A stretch of DNA of 64,000 bases from IMG/VR virus record IMGVR_UViG_3300032167_000002, positions 338,312 to 402,311 of that record. One strand, given 5' to 3'. Position 1 is the stretch's first letter, and the number at the start of each line of letters is the position of its first letter. Of the stretch, positions 36,016 through 60,323 are shown one piece after another. Source of the DNA: a virus. Its lineage: Duplodnaviria; Heunggongvirae; Uroviricota; Caudoviricetes. A program made the position numbers and the translations under genes. Below the pieces are notes generated by a model. It searched no databases. It was given only the letters and a program-made list of their open reading frames with translations, and had not been told where the DNA came from.

Positions 36016-36044
36016 ATTATATCATATTTTTTTATAAAAATCAA
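36016..36044 (-). promoter_or_regulatory. Consensus sigma70-type promoter: TTGATT, 17 nt spacer, TGATATAAT (extended -10). The same roughly 40-bp cassette recurs at 37516-37544, about 41852-41881, 45291-45319, 49367-49395, 50709-50737, 52904-52932, 54582-54610, 57657-57685 and 60252-60280.
   Basis: The near-identical block ATTGATTTTTATAAAAAAATATGATATAATATATAT lies upstream of each minus-strand cassette gene. Confidence 0.7.
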
Positions 36045-36046
36045 TA

Positions 36047-36760
36047 TTATAGAAATGGATCAGACATGAAGACATCCTCATCCCAGGTATCCAGGTTCAG
36101 CAGAACGCAGATTCCCGTAAAGACGGCGCCGCAATCAATGCAACATTTGCGGCCATCCGCATACCAAAGTGCACCAGGTTCAATATCTCCCATCTTGCAA
36201 CAGGGATCAATATCATCGAGCAGATATGGAATAGGCGTATGTCCATGAATGACGATTGCCTTCTGGAACATTTCATCTTCGGGCCAGGGGTCAAGGAAGT
36301 GATCTCTGTCCCAAAACAAATCTGTACCCCACGGCCAGCGCAGATTACCTTGATGATCCAGCGAAGGAGTAAATCCTGCGTGGGAGAGGTAAACAGTTTC
36401 ACCTTGAGTGTTGACATATGTTGCCTTAGTGGGAAGGTCGGCTAACTTAGCCTTCCACTCTTTCCAATCGGGTTCTTCCATAGCCTGTTCACAGGTCTTT
36501 TTACCTCCGTTACTACGAAGCAACGCCCAGGCAGAACCATAGCCATGACCCATAGCATTTACGAGCATATCCTCGTGGTTGCCTTTGAGGTAGATAAATT
36601 GAGGATCGTTCAAAACTGCCTTGATAGTTTCCCAGGGATGCGGACCACGATCACCAGCATCACCAAGAAAGTAAACCACATCTTCGGGTTTCAACTGTTC
36701 TTTTATAGTTTTATAGAAGTGTAGCATACCATGAAAGTCGCTACACGCGTAAGTAGCCAT
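36047..36760 (-). CDS. Calcineurin-like metallophosphoesterase.
   Basis: The motifs SDFHG, GDAGDRG and GNHE are present. Confidence 0.7.
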   Translation of the reverse strand: MATYACSDFHGMLHFYKTIKEQLKPEDVVYFLGDAGDRGPHPWETIKAVLNDPQFIYLKGNHEDMLVNAMGHGYGSAWALLRSNGGKKTCEQAMEEPDWKEWKAKLADLPTKATYVNTQGETVYLSHAGFTPSLDHQGNLRWPWGTDLFWDRDHFLDPWPEDEMFQKAIVIHGHTPIPYLLDDIDPCCKMGDIEPGALWYADGRKCCIDCGAVFTGICVLLNLDTWDEDVFMSDPFL

Positions 36761-36917
36761 TATTTCACCTTCTTCAAAATAAACATATAGTGTTCGATTT
36801 TCATTTCCTTCATTACCTCATGGACTTCTTCATATCCAGAGGTCATAACACCACCAAATGGATGCTTTGTAATTTCTCCATCTTTTTCGTGGAAAACAAA
36901 TCCTTTTGCCTCGTACA

Positions 36918-56877: not shown

Positions 56878-57723
56878 TCTCCTTTACTAATAATCTTGTT
56901 CTTCCCGGTTGTGACAATATCGGAACATAACGCCAACCCGATAATGTGAAATTATCGGGCTCTTTCCTCATTAAACCATCTCGCACAGCTTTTTCTAACT
57001 GCAAATGCCATTTCCAGGCTTCAGAAGTAATCAACGGTGCGTATTTAGGCATTTTGCATCAGCCTTTCATATGCTTCTTTACTCTCTTGGCGCATATCGT
57101 CAATCCAGTCCCACTCTGCGTGGCACCAGTAACGAGCACCATCATCATACTCGATAACAATGGCAACAGGATGGCGCATCGGCAGACCAATTCGAGGAGG
57201 CGCAGGATCGACAATGCCGATAATGAAGAAATCTTCATCCAAAAGCTCAATCAGCTGCTCTTCCCAAGTAGTCTGAATCCAACCGTTCCACATCTCGTGG
57301 CGAGCTTCACCAACCTGATACATATCATTATGCAGACCCATTAGATTCAGCTGATTGCGGCTTTGGCTCATATCTACGGCAGACTTATACCATGCATCAC
57401 GCTCTTGCCAGGTCAAAGCTTGTCGGAAATAGGCAACCTTATCCATGTCTACAGGATTGCGGCCCCACTCACGAGCGATGCCATCTTCACCGACTTCGAT
57501 ATCCACAAAATGAGCCGTACGAGTGCCATTTGAATTTTTATGACCTTCGTAACCCTTATAATGATCTCCTGGCTTCATATCCTTGGGGTCAATCAGTTTA
57601 TACTCTGGCGGTTTCATATATGTCAATCCCTTTCTTTTCTTATTCTTTACATATATATTATATCATATTTTTTTATAAAAATCAAAAAAGGGGTGGATTG
57701 CTCCACCCCTTGGGAATATTCAA

Positions 57724-60204
57724 TTAGCCCTTATTGAGCTGCGCCATAATCTCCTTCACATCGAAGGGAAGACCATTCAACAGCTTCTGAGTAGCATCAA
57801 CGACGCTCTCACCCTGTGCCAGGGCGTAGGGGCTCATATGCTCGGCCATTACAGCCATCAGATCGCACTTGCCACCGACTTCGATAGCAGCAATCAGCTC
57901 GGGGCTGATGGAGCTCATGATCTGCTTTACAGTTTCAGCATATGCTGCCTGCTTTGCAGCTTCCACATCGGCCAGAGCCTTTGCGTGAGCGACCATTGCG
58001 GCATTCTCAGTGTCGATACGAGCCTGGCGAGCAGCGTGCTCGGCAGCTTCGCGCTTATCCTTAGCTGCGCTGATAGCATCCAGCAAGGGCTGCATATCGC
58101 TTTCAGCCTGACGCTTTGCGCGATCTTCAGCTTCCTGCTGACGATTGATCTGAGCCTGCATAGCCAACTTATGCTCGGCTTCCTTCTTCTGCAGATCCAT
58201 CTTATTCAGCAGTTCCTGGGTACGAAGCTCCTGCTTCTTCTTCTCGGCAACTGCCATAGCCTCTGCAATGTCAGCTTCAGCCTTAGCGTCAGCCAGCTCC
58301 AGAGTCTTACGGATCATTTCGTGCTGGCTATCCAGCAACATATTCTCGATGTCGCGCTGTACGCTCAGATCCAGGACTTCGACATCATGGACGAACATAC
58401 CATTCTCGGGGAAGAAGCGATGGCCGCGATGCTTGTTCTCAGCGCCATCAGCGTTTTCAGTTTCAGCACGCAGGCCCAGTACCACAGAGCGAACAATATC
58501 AGAGTAGTTCTGATAAAACTCGTTGATGGTATACTGCTTAGCGGCACGCTTCAGCAGAGAGCGCATACGATCGCACAGGTACTTGACATAGTTGTCAACG
58601 GCGAACCACTTGTCCTTGTGTGCGGGATCGAAGTCAACGCAGTAGCTGACCTTGATATTGGCACGGACGAAGTCGCTGGTCTCCACGGGAATCAGGTCAG
58701 AAACCTTGTTATTCTCGTGGCGCAGGTATACGGTCTTGAGAGTACGATCGGTGGTCTTGGGGCAACCAGTAGAGAGCTCCAGACGCTCCAAATCCTGGTC
58801 GTAGTCGAGCAGAACAGTCTGCGGGCCGCACACAACGGCTCTTTCACCGCTCTTGGAAATGACATTGATTGCATAGCCAGTCCATACATCAATGGAAACA
58901 ACGCCGTCGAGCTTATTATCCAGAGTGATAGTTCTGGGCTTGGTATAGGAAGTGCCACGGGAGATGTTGGCCTTGGCCTCCAGGTTTGCCAGAGAGGCGG
59001 AAGCAGAAGTAACGCAGGAATATGCGGTCAGAGTATCCAGATCGGCAGTAGCCAGGGACTTCTCAACAAACTTCTCGTTCAGGCCGATGTTATAATTCAA
59101 TACGGCGGTGTTGCCGGGATACCACAGGTTGCACTGGTTCTCAGTCAGCTTACGCTTGACGACAACTTCAGTTCTGGGATCGGGCAGGTACATGGCGGGA
59201 CCCTTAACGGTCTTGATTACGCCAGTCATGCGGTTCATGATATAGCGGCCTTCGCCCTCGGGAATAGCGATCGCATGGTGCATCATCTTATTGTCATAAG
59301 AGATAATTGCGTGCTCGGGGCGGGGGTAGTAGATCATCTGGTCGTTGCCGGTGATAAACAGTTCTTCACCAACGGGGTGAACGGTGCCATCTTCATCCTT
59401 GTACTCAGCGATAACCTTGACATAAATGCCGGAAATCTTGGAGAGCTCAACGGCACGGAAGATATAGCCACCCTTGGGGGAAGTTACGAAAGTTTCAGTA
59501 GGCTTGGGGAACACCACTTCGGGGCCATGAACGTAACGCTTGTTGCCGTCCTCATCCTTCAGAATACAGTACTCCAGGCGCTCCAGGGTAACGGCCTCGC
59601 GCACATAACCCTTGCGGTCATCATTGTCCTTGGGGATAACTTCGATACCAGTGGGAGGAATGTAGAAGGAAACCTCAGTACCCTTGATAACCAGAATCTG
59701 GCCGTTTACATACTTCTCCTGGGTGTTCTCGATAACATTACCCTCGGTGTCTCTCATTTCACCGGCGCTCTTAGAAGCCTCTTCAGCCTCATACACTCTT
59801 GCCAGAAGATACTGGTTGGAGCGCAGAGCGTGACCCTTGACTACCTTAGCCATCTGGCCGGGATACAGAGCGAAACTGACTGGGCCGCGCACATTTACCT
59901 TGCGGCCGATATGCACATTGTCAGGCAGGTTGTTGGCACCGGGATTAGGATGCTTGTTACCCTCAACAGGGTTCTTCAGAATGATGTACCAGTTCTCCGG
60001 AGCGGTAGCAAACAGGTTCACCACTTCATTGTAGCCACACTTGACAAAGCTCTTGCTTCTGGTGTCAAAGCGGACCAGCTTATCGGAATTGGAAAGGCTT
60101 GTCTTGGAAGGTCCTACCCAACATACGACATGACCCTTGGTCTCGTCGAGCACATAGGCATATTCATTGATGGAGAGGACTAAATCTTTTTGCAGTTCAG
60201 ACAT
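57724..60204 (-). CDS. Major vault protein (MVP) homologue with N-terminal MVP repeats, a shoulder (SPFH-like) domain and a C-terminal cap-helix coiled coil.
   Basis: YAYVLDETKGHVVCWVGPSKTSLSNSDKLVRFDTRSKSFVKCGYNEV resembles the MVP N-terminal repeat ([32 protein letters not shown]...). ETSDFVRANIKVSYCVDFD resembles the shoulder (ETADHARLQLQLAYNWHFE). The final roughly 200 aa are an Ala/Glu/Lys-rich coiled coil. Confidence 0.7.
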   Translation of the reverse strand: MSELQKDLVLSINEYAYVLDETKGHVVCWVGPSKTSLSNSDKLVRFDTRSKSFVKCGYNEVVNLFATAPENWYIILKNPVEGNKHPNPGANNLPDNVHIGRKVNVRGPVSFALYPGQMAKVVKGHALRSNQYLLARVYEAEEASKSAGEMRDTEGNVIENTQEKYVNGQILVIKGTEVSFYIPPTGIEVIPKDNDDRKGYVREAVTLERLEYCILKDEDGNKRYVHGPEVVFPKPTETFVTSPKGGYIFRAVELSKISGIYVKVIAEYKDEDGTVHPVGEELFITGNDQMIYYPRPEHAIISYDNKMMHHAIAIPEGEGRYIMNRMTGVIKTVKGPAMYLPDPRTEVVVKRKLTENQCNLWYPGNTAVLNYNIGLNEKFVEKSLATADLDTLTAYSCVTSASASLANLEAKANISRGTSYTKPRTITLDNKLDGVVSIDVWTGYAINVISKSGERAVVCGPQTVLLDYDQDLERLELSTGCPKTTDRTLKTVYLRHENNKVSDLIPVETSDFVRANIKVSYCVDFDPAHKDKWFAVDNYVKYLCDRMRSLLKRAAKQYTINEFYQNYSDIVRSVVLGLRAETENADGAENKHRGHRFFPENGMFVHDVEVLDLSVQRDIENMLLDSQHEMIRKTLELADAKAEADIAEAMAVAEKKKQELRTQELLNKMDLQKKEAEHKLAMQAQINRQQEAEDRAKRQAESDMQPLLDAISAAKDKREAAEHAARQARIDTENAAMVAHAKALADVEAAKQAAYAETVKQIMSSISPELIAAIEVGGKCDLMAVMAEHMSPYALAQGESVVDATQKLLNGLPFDVKEIMAQLNKG

Positions 60205-60323
60205 ATCGGATTTTTCCTTTCTTATTATTTTTCTTTATTTCTTACATATATATTATAACATTTTTTTTATAAAAAATCAATAAAAAAGAAAAAAGGAGAT
60301 AGATATAAAAATCTATCTCCTTA

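What the first reader, a model, noticed from the sequence alone, without database searches (positions are those of the whole stretch)
36016..60280. Ten near-identical 40-bp consensus promoter cassettes defining a modular gene array
Between 36 and 60 kb essentially every minus-strand gene or gene pair follows the same plan. A hairpin terminator comes first, then the block ATTGATTTTTATAAAAAAATATGATATAATATATAT (TTGATT, 17 nt, extended -10 TGATATAAT), then a short leader, then the gene. The block is conserved almost base for base across all ten copies. That degree of promoter identity suggests cassette-wise acquisition or shuffling of accessory genes by recombination between the repeats. The repeats could also be mistaken for a CRISPR-like array at first sight. 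The early replication region uses equally good but non-identical consensus promoters (TTGACA, 17 nt, TATAAT).
Basis: seen in the sequence. Interest (0 to 1): 0.5.

Follow-up and report, generated by a model that had tools for sequence, protein, structure and literature searches.

The report
Repeated terminator–promoter junctions of a phage
Ten almost identical "stop-then-restart" transcription signals cut a 24-kb block of accessory, mostly anti-defence-type genes of an uncultured gut/rumen phage into separately driven operons. The feature is real and strongly selected, but the same kind of element is already described in T4-like phages.

Summary
Ten minus-strand copies of TTGATTTTTATAAAAAAATATG(A/T)TATAAT lie between 36.0 and 60.3 kb. 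Nine are identical, and the tenth has a compensated +T/-T indel that keeps the 17-nt spacer. Nine are abutted by a GC-rich hairpin whose sequence differs at every site.

They head operons of 1 to 8 genes, not single genes or pairs. Each unit is an intrinsic terminator, a Gram-positive-type sigma-A promoter (-16 TRTG, extended -10), and a short leader with a Shine-Dalgarno sequence.

The exact 29-mer recurs in more than 88 stretches of large uncultured phage contigs whose coding DNA is only 65-80% identical to the window. Position-specific variants are inherited at orthologous sites. The identity therefore reflects purifying selection on a family-wide consensus, not recent copying.

In 80 independently sampled relatives, hairpin-abutted promoters have the -35 TTGATT in 137/147 cases, against 164/309 without a hairpin. 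This suggests the T-rich -35/spacer doubles as the terminator U-tract.

Cassette order is heavily shuffled across the family. Breakpoints are only modestly enriched at the blocks.

The closest known elements are the PeSL promoter/stem-loop cassettes of T4-like phages. This is a new member of that kind, in a non-T4 phage family that also carries its own divergent SigA-like sigma factor.

The parts
36016..36044 (-). P1: promoter block (-35 TTGATT, 17-nt spacer, TG-extended -10 TATAAT). It has no upstream hairpin. It heads ORFs 35744-35977, AAA_33 kinase-like 35033-35578 and metallophosphatase 34434-35036.
37516..37544 (-). P2: promoter block. It heads NMNAT-like 36918-37481, a small ORF, and metallophosphatase 36047-36760.
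37546..37574 (-). Terminator hairpin abutting P2 (12 bp, tail ATTGATTTTT).
41853..41881 (-). P3: promoter block. It heads two small ORFs, NadV/NAMPT-like 39601-41346, a 158-aa ORF (39125-39601, no Pfam hit, called macrodomain-like by eye only), NAD synthase 38313-39128, NADAR 37839-38288 and ORF 37577-37858.
41882..41915 (-). Terminator hairpin abutting P3 (14 bp).
45291..45319 (-). P4: promoter block. It heads isochorismatase/nicotinamidase-like 44680-45255, Prs-like 43603-44481, YqeY-like 43092-43751, Sir2 42272-43123 and ORF 41917-42321.
45321..45344 (-). Terminator hairpin abutting P4 (9 bp).
49367..49395 (-). P5: promoter block. It heads RNase T-like exonuclease 48427-49329, ORF 47831-48289, RNA ligase-like 46407-47834 and HD_4 protein 45570-46229.
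49398..49428 (-). Terminator hairpin abutting P5 (14 bp).
50709..50737 (-). P6: promoter block. It heads small ORF 50326-50673 and the sigma gene.
49434..50354 (-). Phage SigA/RpoD-like sigma factor with regions 1.2, 2, 3 and 4 and no region 1.1. It is transcribed from P6.
50737..50767 (-). Terminator hairpin abutting or overlapping the first T of P6 (13 bp). Orthologues show compensatory stem changes.
52904..52932 (-). P7: promoter block. It heads a small ORF, metallophosphatase 51991-52719, Thg1-like 51195-52058 and ORF 50774-51112.
52931..52966 (-). Terminator hairpin overlapping TT of the P7 -35 (16 bp).
54582..54610 (-). P8: promoter block. It heads ORF 54292-54555, metallophosphatase 53406-54299 and two small ORFs.
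54615..54636 (-). Terminator hairpin abutting P8 (9 bp).
57657..57685 (-). P9: promoter block. It heads ORF 57045-57617, cREC_REC-domain ORF 56566-56877, several small ORFs and nucleotidyltransferase-like 54936-55814.
57688..57711 (-). Terminator hairpin abutting P9 (10 bp).
60252..60280 (-). P10: variant promoter block (T6-AT-A8, spacer still 17 nt). It heads the major-vault-protein-like gene 57724-60204.
60293..60322 (-). Terminator hairpin upstream of P10 (12 bp, tail TTTTCTTTTT).
5158..6129 (-). Sak4-like single-strand-annealing recombinase. It lies outside the array and is a candidate enzyme for short-homology exchange between the blocks.
   Evidence: PMC5928155, PMC5499656

Best explanation
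Each block is the core of a composite terminator/promoter/leader junction about 100 nt long. A GC-rich hairpin ends the upstream operon. Its U-rich tail is supplied by ATTGATTTTTAT, which is also the -35 hexamer and the first part of the spacer of a strong primary-sigma (SigA-type) promoter: TTGATT, 17 nt, TATG-N-TATAAT with the Gram-positive -16 TRTG / extended -10. An AT-rich discriminator and a 20-40-nt leader with an AAAGGA Shine-Dalgarno then start the next operon.

The ten junctions insulate ten co-directional accessory operons and give each the same strong promoter. The cargo is NAD-metabolism genes, ADP-ribose-related domains, RNA-repair-type genes, phosphoesterases, an MVP-like protein and the phage's own sigma factor.

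The near-identity is maintained by purifying selection on a consensus shared by a whole family of uncultured 120-200-kb gut/rumen phages, probably of Clostridia. It is not the result of recent duplication.

Shown here: the repeat, its anatomy, its family-wide conservation, and the link between TTGATT and the hairpin.

Inferred: that host SigA holoenzyme fires the promoters early in infection. The sigma gene itself sits behind one, so something other than the phage sigma must read it first. Also inferred: that the phage sigma later reads the same class, and that the blocks serve as convenient module boundaries during shuffling.
For: - Repeat and chance expectation.
- Hairpins with nine different stems, whose T-tails are the -35/spacer.
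- The exact 29-mer occurs in at least 88 stretches of viral contigs whose coding DNA is 65-80% identical to the window.
- In 80 loci fetched by the MVP-like protein, not by the promoter, a scan for TTGA-N19-TATAAT alone gives 479 unique hits, 456 of them on the gene strand. The spacer and downstream logo is the same (TTGATTTTT.TAAAAAAATATGATATAAT ATATATA.AA).
- All eight orthologous promoter positions are conserved in contig 3300045988_079139 at 57-80% protein identity, with every change in the spacer.
- The MVP promoter keeps a position-specific A8-9TG variant in lineages with 59-86% MVP identity.
- Compensatory stem changes occur in orthologous terminators.
- -35 TTGATT is present in 137/147 hairpin-abutted promoters and 164/309 without a hairpin. 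TTGACA is 3 against 61. Odds ratio 12.
- The sigma is SigA/RpoD-like and keeps the -35-reading residues RERIRQ.
- The sigma gene is preceded by a family-type promoter in most relatives.
Against: - There is no transcript data, so promoter and terminator activity, timing and the reading sigma factor are all inferred from sequence.
- The host is unknown. MAG bins carrying the motif are mostly Clostridia but also Alistipes, Treponema and Methanobrevibacter.
- The terminator tails are interrupted by G/A (UUGAUUUUU), so efficiency may be partial.
- The counts come from related genomes and are not independent. The 'no hairpin' set contains some chance matches.
- The window lineage is far more uniform (9 copies at distance 0) than most relatives (typically 2-7 differences). 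Simple purifying selection does not fully explain this.
Confidence: 0.7

Rival explanations
1. The blocks form a phage-specific promoter class read preferentially by the phage-encoded SigA-like factor. This would be an orthogonal or middle-phase transcription system. The invariance of the spacer, discriminator and unusual -35 would reflect co-evolution with that factor rather than host SigA optimisation and terminator overlap.
For: - The family carries its own divergent sigma clade. All of the roughly 35 sigma loci that have family-type promoters nearby encode non-canonical variants (TYW for TWW, IKQ for IRQ, ISRA for ITRA, variable region 3.0).
- All 45 canonical sigma loci have none of these promoters.
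- The window subclade has a rare H455N-equivalent change and also the most uniform promoters.
- Conservation extends well beyond the two hexamers.
Against: - The sigma gene itself lies behind the same promoter in the window and in most relatives, so another holoenzyme must read the class first.
- The -35-reading helix is canonical, and the promoter is a textbook Gram-positive SigA promoter.
- The TTGATT deviation tracks hairpin presence, which the terminator overlap explains without a special sigma.
- The co-occurrence is trivial if both are simply family traits.
Confidence: 0.2
2. The identity is produced mainly by recombination. The blocks would be PeSL-like recombination substrates that homogenise one another by gene conversion and mediate excision and insertion of cassettes, for example via mini-circles. 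The array would then be a recently assembled set of mobile cassettes.
For: - Cassette order is heavily shuffled in the family, with blocks at many junctions.
- Rearranged adjacencies carry a block in 72/133 cases against 53/168 for conserved ones (odds ratio 2.6).
- The small ORF 50326-50673 follows a block before sigma here but before a metallophosphatase gene in L117, L134 and L141.
- The phage encodes a Sak4-like annealase able to use short homologies (PMC5928155, PMC5499656).
- The window lineage shows about 0 changes against about 13 in its sister L094/L089.
- There is experimental precedent in T4-like phages (PMC2839356).
Against: - The same exact sequence is the consensus of lineages down to about 55% MVP identity. 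Drift plus conversion alone would give different consensuses in different lineages.
- The MVP promoter retains its own variant in several lineages.
- Hairpins and leaders are position-specific and orthologously conserved.
- In a population of 95-98% identical genomes, only 4 of 38 breakpoint clusters lie in a block. That is no more than expected for gene boundaries in general.
- The closest relatives are collinear with the window.
Confidence: 0.2
3. The invariant spacer is an operator. The palindromic T5-AT-A5 core (TTTTTATAAAAA) would bind a phage or host regulator that switches all ten operons on or off together.
For: - The spacer contains a perfect 12-bp palindrome. The variant copy P10 keeps a palindrome (T6-AT-A6).
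- Spacer positions are conserved family-wide at 55-90%.
Against: - Across relatives the centre of the T-run/A-run shifts and A/T swaps are frequent. This fits a compositional or structural constraint better than a fixed operator.
- The T-run correlates with the upstream hairpin.
- No candidate regulator was identified.
Confidence: 0.08
4. The repeats are a CRISPR-like array, an assembly artefact or a chance low-complexity match.
For: There are short near-identical direct repeats, all in one orientation.
Against: - Spacing is 1342-4337 bp and is filled with ORFs that have Pfam domains.
- Flanks are unique.
- 0 matches are expected in shuffles.
- The same architecture occurs in more than 100 independent contigs.
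Confidence: 0.01

Closest known systems
PeSLs (promoter-early stem-loops) of T4-like phages RB49/phi1, PST/T4 and nt-1/KVP40 (Arbiol et al. 2010, PMC2839356; Comeau et al. 2014, PMC4122927)
   Same: - Composite intergenic element: a stem-loop terminator placed just upstream of, or overlapping, a near-consensus sigma-70-type promoter, ending in the SD and start codon of the next gene.
- Many conserved copies per genome.
- Concentrated in a variable block of accessory genes.
- Often found at rearrangement junctions between relatives.
   Different: - The phage here is not T4-like. It has a DnaB/DnaG/Sak4-type replication module and no nucleotide match to any GenBank phage.
- The promoter is of the Gram-positive extended -10 type.
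- The units are operons of 1-8 genes rather than single ORFans.
- The core is more uniform (9 identical copies) and is conserved across a far more diverged family.
- Stems are not of a shared G(n)/C(n) type.
- Breakpoints among close relatives are mostly not in the elements.
- Mini-circles and promoter/terminator activity are untested.
- The phage encodes its own SigA-like sigma.
Extended-consensus early promoters of virulent phages (T4 early promoters, SPO1 and T5 early promoters). This comparison rests on my own knowledge, not on a tool result.
   Same: Many strong host-sigma promoters per genome, with conservation extending beyond the two hexamers. They drive early, host-takeover genes.
   Different: Here nine copies are identical over at least 29 nt, each is fused to a terminator, and timing is unknown.
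Intergenic repeats carrying promoters in halovirus HF2 (PMC8707807; abstract seen)
   Same: Short (29-58 bp) AT-rich intergenic repeats scattered through a viral genome that act as promoters.
   Different: These are archaeal promoters, with no terminator fusion reported in the abstract, in an unrelated virus group.
Lambdoid 'morons' and integron cassettes. This comparison rests on my own knowledge and on the discussion in PMC2839356.
   Same: Accessory genes that come with their own promoter and terminator, or sit in a cassette array that is expressed modularly.
   Different: Morons lack a shared flanking repeat. Integrons use attC sites and an integrase with a single promoter. No integrase or attC-like site was seen here.

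Membership tests
PeSL-type composite promoter/stem-loop cassette | A sigma-70-like promoter with an adjacent or overlapping stable stem-loop in an intergenic space | tested here: met
   Nine of ten copies have a 9-16-bp GC-rich hairpin ending 0-12 nt before, or 1-2 nt inside, the -35.
PeSL-type composite promoter/stem-loop cassette | Multiple sequence-conserved copies per genome, ending in the SD and start codon of the downstream gene | tested here: met
   There are 10 copies of a 55-nt family at 80-100% identity. Leaders of 26-47 nt carry AAAGGA-type SD sequences before the ATG.
PeSL-type composite promoter/stem-loop cassette | Concentration in a hyperplastic region of non-essential or accessory genes | tested here: met
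   All 10 copies lie in the 24-kb accessory block. Gene content and order of that block vary strongly among 80 related loci.
PeSL-type composite promoter/stem-loop cassette | Indel or replacement breakpoints between close relatives lie in or next to the elements | tested here: inconclusive
   Family-wide, rearranged junctions carry a block more often (72/133 against 53/168). In genomes 95-98% identical, only 4 of 38 breakpoint clusters fall within 35 nt of a block.
PeSL-type composite promoter/stem-loop cassette | Recombination between elements producing mini-circles or deletions | not testable with these tools
   This needs inverse PCR on an isolate or read-level analysis of the source metagenome.
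PeSL-type composite promoter/stem-loop cassette | Demonstrated promoter and terminator activity | not testable with these tools
   Only consensus matches are available.
PeSL-type composite promoter/stem-loop cassette | Carried by a T4-like myovirus (the group in which the elements were defined) | tested here: not met
   The replication module is DnaG primase, DnaB helicase and Sak4-like annealase. There is no megablast match to 50,697 phage records. The MVP-like protein matches only three huge uncultured phages.
Gram-positive SigA-type promoter with extended -10 | -35 close to TTGACA, 17 +/- 1-nt spacer, TRTG at -16, -10 TATAAT | tested here: met
   The sequence is TTGATT (4/6), a 17-nt spacer, TATG, then (A/T)TATAAT in 9 copies. 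P10 has AATG instead of TATG.
Gram-positive SigA-type promoter with extended -10 | Transcription initiates about 7 nt downstream with SigA holoenzyme | not testable with these tools
   No transcript data are available.
Intrinsic (Rho-independent) terminator | GC-rich stem, short loop, U-rich tail directly after the stem | tested here: met
   Nine sites pass the terminator scan with 9-16 pairs, loops of 3-6 and at least 5 T in 8 nt. Tails contain one G/A interruption.
CRISPR array | Repeats of 23-47 bp separated by unique spacers of similar length | tested here: not met
   Spacing is 1342-4337 bp and is occupied by protein-coding genes.

The most novel reading that the evidence does not exclude
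The extended 45-bp promoter and the family's own divergent SigA-like factor (no region 1.1; altered -10 and extended -10 contact residues) form a co-evolved, phage-private transcription circuit. Host SigA would ignite it once. The phage sigma, itself behind one of the blocks, would then lock all counter-defence operons on through positive feedback, even if host SigA is scarce or inactivated. The fused terminator/promoter junction would be a standardised, portable socket that lets this phage family swap counter-defence cassettes.
Probability: 0.2. Interest if true: 0.65.

Novelty: new member of a known kind. Interest (0 to 1): 0.42.

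Why it matters
It extends the PeSL idea beyond T4-like coliphages and vibriophages. That idea is that conserved terminator/promoter junctions frame exchangeable accessory genes. The family here is large, uncultured, from gut and rumen, and probably infects Clostridia.

It gives a concrete sequence rule. The -35 becomes TTGATT and is followed by a T-run where a terminator abuts, so one stretch of DNA serves as both terminator tail and promoter. 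That rule is testable and could be useful for compact synthetic operon design in Firmicutes.

The blocks are also a practical marker. Searching for the 29-mer pulls out this phage family and delimits its counter-defence cargo, which includes genes resembling an NAD+ reconstitution pathway, RNA-repair genes and ADP-ribose-related domains.

The link to a phage-specific SigA-like clade raises a testable question about how these phages take over transcription.

Tried and rejected
- Megablast of the 24-kb array against 50,697 phage records gave no match. Nothing could be learned from annotated relatives.
- Rfam at gathering thresholds over the whole window gave nothing. ARAGORN found no tRNA in the window.
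- Looking for a second conserved 'replication-class' promoter (TTGACAAAANGAAAAA) in 272 loci gave 1 hit. That class is not family-conserved.
- A single-sequence locus search with the sigma protein found only 2 loci. An alignment query was needed. That list was truncated to 80 of 530, so whole-genome co-occurrence of sigma and promoter could not be computed.
- I tested for concerted evolution using the A/T position after the TG and the +7/+8 dinucleotide at orthologous sites. Variants are partly position-specific and partly scattered. There is no clear conversion signal, and the MVP promoter variant argues for vertical descent.
- I tried to use the hairpins to trace which flank travels with which gene in rearranged genomes. 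At 47-58% protein identity the hairpins are too diverged to match.
- The genome-contig scan for host assignment gave MAG bins from many phyla. It gives only a weak lean to Clostridia.
- The CRISPR reading was rejected on spacing and coding content.
- Structure prediction, the 5.8-billion-protein search and the representative search were not used. None would bear on the promoter question.

Full report
**1. Observation**

The looser pattern TTGAYW-N16-18-TATAAT gives 19 hits, all on the minus strand, against 0.40 expected.

Ten of these form the array. Their -35 starts at 36044, 37544, 41881, 45319, 49395, 50737, 52932, 54610, 57685 and 60280. Nine are identical over 29 nt, TTGATTTTTATAAAAAAATATG(A/T)TATAAT. 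The tenth, upstream of the 826-aa gene, is TTGATTTTTTATAAAAAAAATGTTATAAT. It has one extra T in the T-run and one T fewer before the TG, so the spacer is still 17 nt.

The repeat finder independently reports a 10-copy direct-repeat family of 55 nt at 80-100% identity, spaced 1342-4337 bp. MAFFT shows an invariant core from TTGATTTTT to TATAATAT.

The sequence upstream of the -35 is not conserved. In nine of ten cases it folds into a 9-16-bp GC-rich hairpin, with a different stem at each site, ending at or just inside the -35. The copy at 36044 has no hairpin and lies just past the stop codon of ORF 36047-36760.

Downstream, ATATAT(AG/GT)AAAG and an AAAGGA-type Shine-Dalgarno follow. The first ATG lies 26-47 nt after the -10.

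- The blocks head operons of one to about eight ORFs, about 45 ORFs in all, not 'every gene or gene pair'.
- One copy lacks the terminator.

Other promoters outside the array (5123, 7547, 20247) are degenerate versions of the same type.

**2. What the region encodes**

All array genes are on the minus strand. Pfam and NCBIfam give the following (nucleotidyltransferase from PHROGs):
- a major-vault-protein-like protein
- a cREC_REC cyclic-phosphate-processing domain protein
- a nucleotidyltransferase
- four calcineurin-like phosphoesterases
- a Thg1-like protein
- a sigma-70 family protein with regions 1.2, 2, 3 and 4
- an RNase T-like exonuclease
- an RNA-ligase-like protein
- an HD_4 protein
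- an isochorismatase/nicotinamidase-like protein
- a ribose-phosphate diphosphokinase-like protein
- YqeY, Sir2 and a NAMPT/NAPRTase-like protein
- NAD synthase, NADAR and a cytidylyltransferase-like (NMNAT-type) protein
- an AAA_33 kinase-like protein

By analogy with published phage counter-defence pathways (NAD+ reconstitution, bioRxiv 10.1101/2024.02.11.579819), this looks like a counter-defence and repair toolbox. That is an inference from domain content only.

The rest of the window carries a DnaG-type primase, a DnaB-type helicase, a Sak4-like annealase and a tail-fibre protein, plus ORFs I read by eye from their translations as topoisomerase/gyrase subunits, an NAD-dependent ligase and lysins. 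It is a large tailed phage and is not T4-like.

**3. Relatives**

No GenBank phage record matches at the nucleotide level. Their coding DNA is only 65-80% identical to the window.

A 35-mer version occurs in 22 MAG contigs. These are mostly binned as Clostridia (Acutalibacteraceae, Oscillospiraceae, Lachnospiraceae) but also as Alistipes, Treponema and Methanobrevibacter, from gut, rumen and yak samples. Together with the strong SD sequences and the TRTG/extended -10 promoter type, this points to a Firmicute host. The host remains unproven.

**4. An unbiased family sample**

To avoid circularity I fetched 80 loci (1.6 Mb) with an alignment of the MVP-like protein, at 41-86% identity. I scanned them for TTGA-N19-TATAAT only. 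There were 479 unique hits, 456 of them on the gene strand.

The positions not used for selection reproduce the window's sequence:
- T at spacer positions 5-9 in 69-85% of hits
- A at positions 13-18 in 61-91%
- TAT before the (T)G in 73-90%
- ATATATA.AA after the -10 in 65-90%

The block is therefore the consensus of an extended promoter, about 45 bp long, shared by the whole family.

About 38 of 66 distinct MVP genes have such a promoter directly upstream.

In the closest fully comparable contig (L089/L094, proteins 57-80% identical), all eight orthologous promoter positions are present. Differences are 0, 0, 0, 1, 2-3 and 3 substitutions or compensated indels, and all lie in the spacer. That is roughly 6% divergence, against about 28% in the coding DNA.

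The MVP promoter keeps its own variant (A8-9 directly before the TG) in the window, L094, L091/92/95 and L137, across 59-86% MVP identity. Orthologous terminators differ by compensatory stem changes. For example, AAGTCCTTCC...GGAAGGACTT in the window corresponds to AAGCCCTTC...GAAGGGCTT in L042.

Taken together, the copies descend vertically, position by position, under purifying selection. They are neither recent copies nor fully homogenised.

One point remains unexplained. The window and its closest relatives (L091-L093) sit exactly on the consensus, while most family members scatter 2-7 differences from it.

**5. Why TTGATTTTT?**

The terminator scan shows that the T-rich tail required after each hairpin is ATTGATTTTT, which is the -35 hexamer plus the start of the spacer.

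I classed the 456 plus-strand hits of the MVP-fetched loci by whether a strong hairpin ends within 8 nt of the -35 (dG of -9 kcal/mol or lower). Results:

| Measure | With hairpin | Without hairpin |
|---|---|---|
| -35 is TTGATT | 137 of 147 | 164 of 309 |
| -35 is TTGACA | 3 | 61 |
| Mean T count in the six bases after TTGA | 5.3 | 4.2 |

The odds ratio for TTGATT is 12 (Fisher p about 1e-19; Mann-Whitney p for the T count about 3e-17).

The data are phylogenetically non-independent, and the 'no hairpin' class includes some chance matches. The effect is nevertheless large, and the hairpin sequences themselves are unrelated.

My reading is that one stretch of DNA is under double constraint, as terminator U-tract and as -35/upstream spacer. 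This explains both the departure from TTGACA and part of the spacer conservation. It is an inference that a termination assay could test.

**6. Who reads the promoters**

The block is a textbook Gram-positive primary-sigma promoter. The phage's own sigma (49434-50354) is SigA/RpoD-like:
- Its best NCBIfam model is PRK09210.
- Its best PDB matches are chains annotated SigA (8x6f, 7ckq, 7l7b), which I recall, without checking, to be from Firmicutes (E about 1e-80).
- About 50% identity is seen in tblastn hits to records named for Enterococcus and Staphylococcus phages.
- It lacks region 1.1.
- It keeps the -35-reading helix (TRERIRQ).
- It has Y for the first W of the TWW motif, S for T in ITRA, and N for the His of region 3.0.

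I fetched 80 sigma loci by similarity alone. All of the roughly 35 that carry family-type promoters encode such non-canonical variants, and these fall outside the clade of canonical sequences. None of the 45 canonical ones has a family promoter nearby. The sigma is therefore a family trait.

Its gene sits behind a family-type block in the window (P6) and in most relatives. Some other holoenzyme, presumably host SigA, must read the class first. The most economical model is that host SigA fires these promoters early and the phage sigma later reads the same class. The alternative, that the class is tuned to the phage sigma, cannot be excluded and is kept as the main rival.

**7. Shuffling**

Across the 80 loci the same genes occur in many orders and combinations. 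They are always co-directional, with blocks between groups. Examples:
- MVP is followed by g193...NTase here, by PncA-Prs in L137, L139 and L170, and by Thg1 in L101.
- Thg1 is paired with MPE242 here, with NMNAT in L137, and with Sir2-YqeY in L139.
- Some genomes have the genes but few blocks (L115).

Junctions that differ from the window's order carry a block in 72/133 cases, against 53/168 for conserved junctions (odds ratio 2.6, p about 1e-4, non-independent). The small ORF 50326-50673 follows a block before sigma here but before a phosphoesterase gene in L117, L134 and L141. The phage encodes a Sak4-like annealase, a class shown to recombine short, diverged homologies (PMC5928155, PMC5499656).

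Against a causal role:
- In a set of 95-98% identical genomes (L100-L110, L163), only 4 of 38 breakpoint clusters lie within 35 nt of a block.
- Most lie at ordinary start or stop codons, or inside a tRNA cluster.
- This is above a uniform expectation (about 1) but not above what gene boundaries in general would give.

Modular shuffling of the family is real, and blocks often mark the seams. Whether they cause the exchanges, or merely survive them because intact transcription units are what selection tolerates, is open.

**8. Comparison with known systems**

The closest described elements are the PeSLs of T4-like phages. These are conserved composites of a stem-loop terminator and a near-consensus early sigma-70 promoter. 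They end in the SD and ATG of the next gene and are concentrated in hyperplastic regions. They are implicated in, and for RB49 experimentally shown to undergo, recombination that excises mini-circles (PMC2839356, PMC4122927).

The architecture, copy number, location and association with variable cargo are the same here. The differences are:
- the phage lineage and presumed host phylum
- the extended -10 promoter type
- operon-sized rather than single-ORF units
- stronger and much deeper sequence conservation
- unrelated stems
- the weak breakpoint association among close relatives
- the presence of a phage SigA-like factor

Activity and mini-circles are untested. I therefore file it as working like a PeSL and as a new member of that kind, not as a proven member of the T4 PeSL family. 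CRISPR is excluded by spacing and coding content.

**9. Verdict**

This is a real, non-random, strongly selected regulatory repeat.

Interest is moderate. The kind of element is known. What is new is the family-wide 45-bp consensus, the evidence that the terminator tail and the -35 share the same bases, and the linked phage-specific sigma clade. All three are testable.

Noticed in passing
window 49434-50354 (-); L193-L241: The phage carries a SigA/RpoD-like sigma without region 1.1. It belongs to a divergent, long-branched set of sequences (TYW, IKQ, ISRA; variable region 3.0; H455-equivalent changed to N in this subclade). That set is found only next to family-type promoters and separates from canonical sigma sequences in an NJ tree.
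   Followed up: partly
window 57724-60204 (-): An 826-aa protein has major-vault-protein shoulder and repeat domains. It is conserved at 41-86% identity in at least 80 viral contigs. In the GenBank phage set it matches only three huge uncultured phages (LR756500, LR756501, LR756503). Its function in a phage is unknown.
   Followed up: partly
window 36918-45255 (-): A dense set of NAD- and ADP-ribose-related genes: NAMPT/NAPRTase-like, Prs-like, NAD synthase, NMNAT-like, nicotinamidase-like, Sir2, NADAR, and a 158-aa ORF that I read as macrodomain-like (no Pfam hit). It resembles published phage NAD+ reconstitution pathways. Whether the Prs-like/NAMPT-like pair is NARP1 (Adps/Namat) was not tested.
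   Followed up: no
window 34434-35578, 45570-49329, 51195-52058, 56566-56877 (-): An RNA-repair-type gene set: RNA-ligase-like, AAA_33 kinase plus phosphoesterase (Pnkp-like pair), Thg1-like, a cREC_REC cyclic-phosphate-processing domain, an RNase T-like exonuclease and an HD_4 protein. It suggests a counter to tRNA- or RNA-cleaving defences.
   Followed up: no
window 60300-62530: A low-GC (0.33) segment with tail-fibre-like ORFs (60645-61421, minus strand) and a plus-strand ORF (61609-62352). It lies between the DUF2828/DUF7788 gene (62536-63984) and P10. In most relatives the DUF2828 gene, a promoter block and the MVP gene are directly adjacent, so this looks like an insertion.
   Followed up: no
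window 1763-4323 and 18993-19745 (-): The DnaB-like helicase appears split into two ORFs (3334-4323 and 1763-2251) around ORF 2468-3148. By eye that ORF has a GIY-YIG motif (GIIYCF...KYIGQS). A second similar ORF (18993-19745) overlaps the start of the gyrB-like gene. These may be homing endonucleases. Neither was run against Pfam.
   Followed up: no
L103 3800-7900 (relative contig IMGVR_UViG_3300045988_119030): In relatives the same promoter blocks precede tRNA genes (Thr, Ser x2, Leu, Gly, Cys). This tRNA cluster is the main hotspot of indels among 95-98% identical genomes. The window itself has no tRNA.
   Followed up: partly
window 32000-60000 versus 1-32000: The accessory array has higher G+C (0.41-0.52) than the replication and tail/lysis parts (0.33-0.43). 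The promoter blocks themselves are about 10% G+C. This is consistent with cargo of foreign, possibly bacterial, origin.
   Followed up: no
window 50326-50673 (-); L117, L134, L141: A small ORF of unknown function (about 115 aa) directly follows a promoter block in different contexts. It precedes the sigma gene here, is absent there in L089/L194, and precedes a phosphoesterase gene in three other relatives. It is the best candidate for a single mobile promoter-plus-ORF unit.
   Followed up: partly
window 32467-33987 (-): An SPFH/Band-7 (flotillin-like) protein of 506 aa with a long Ala/Glu/Lys-rich coiled-coil region. It is conserved next to PhoH and the AAA_33/phosphoesterase pair in many relatives.
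   Followed up: no
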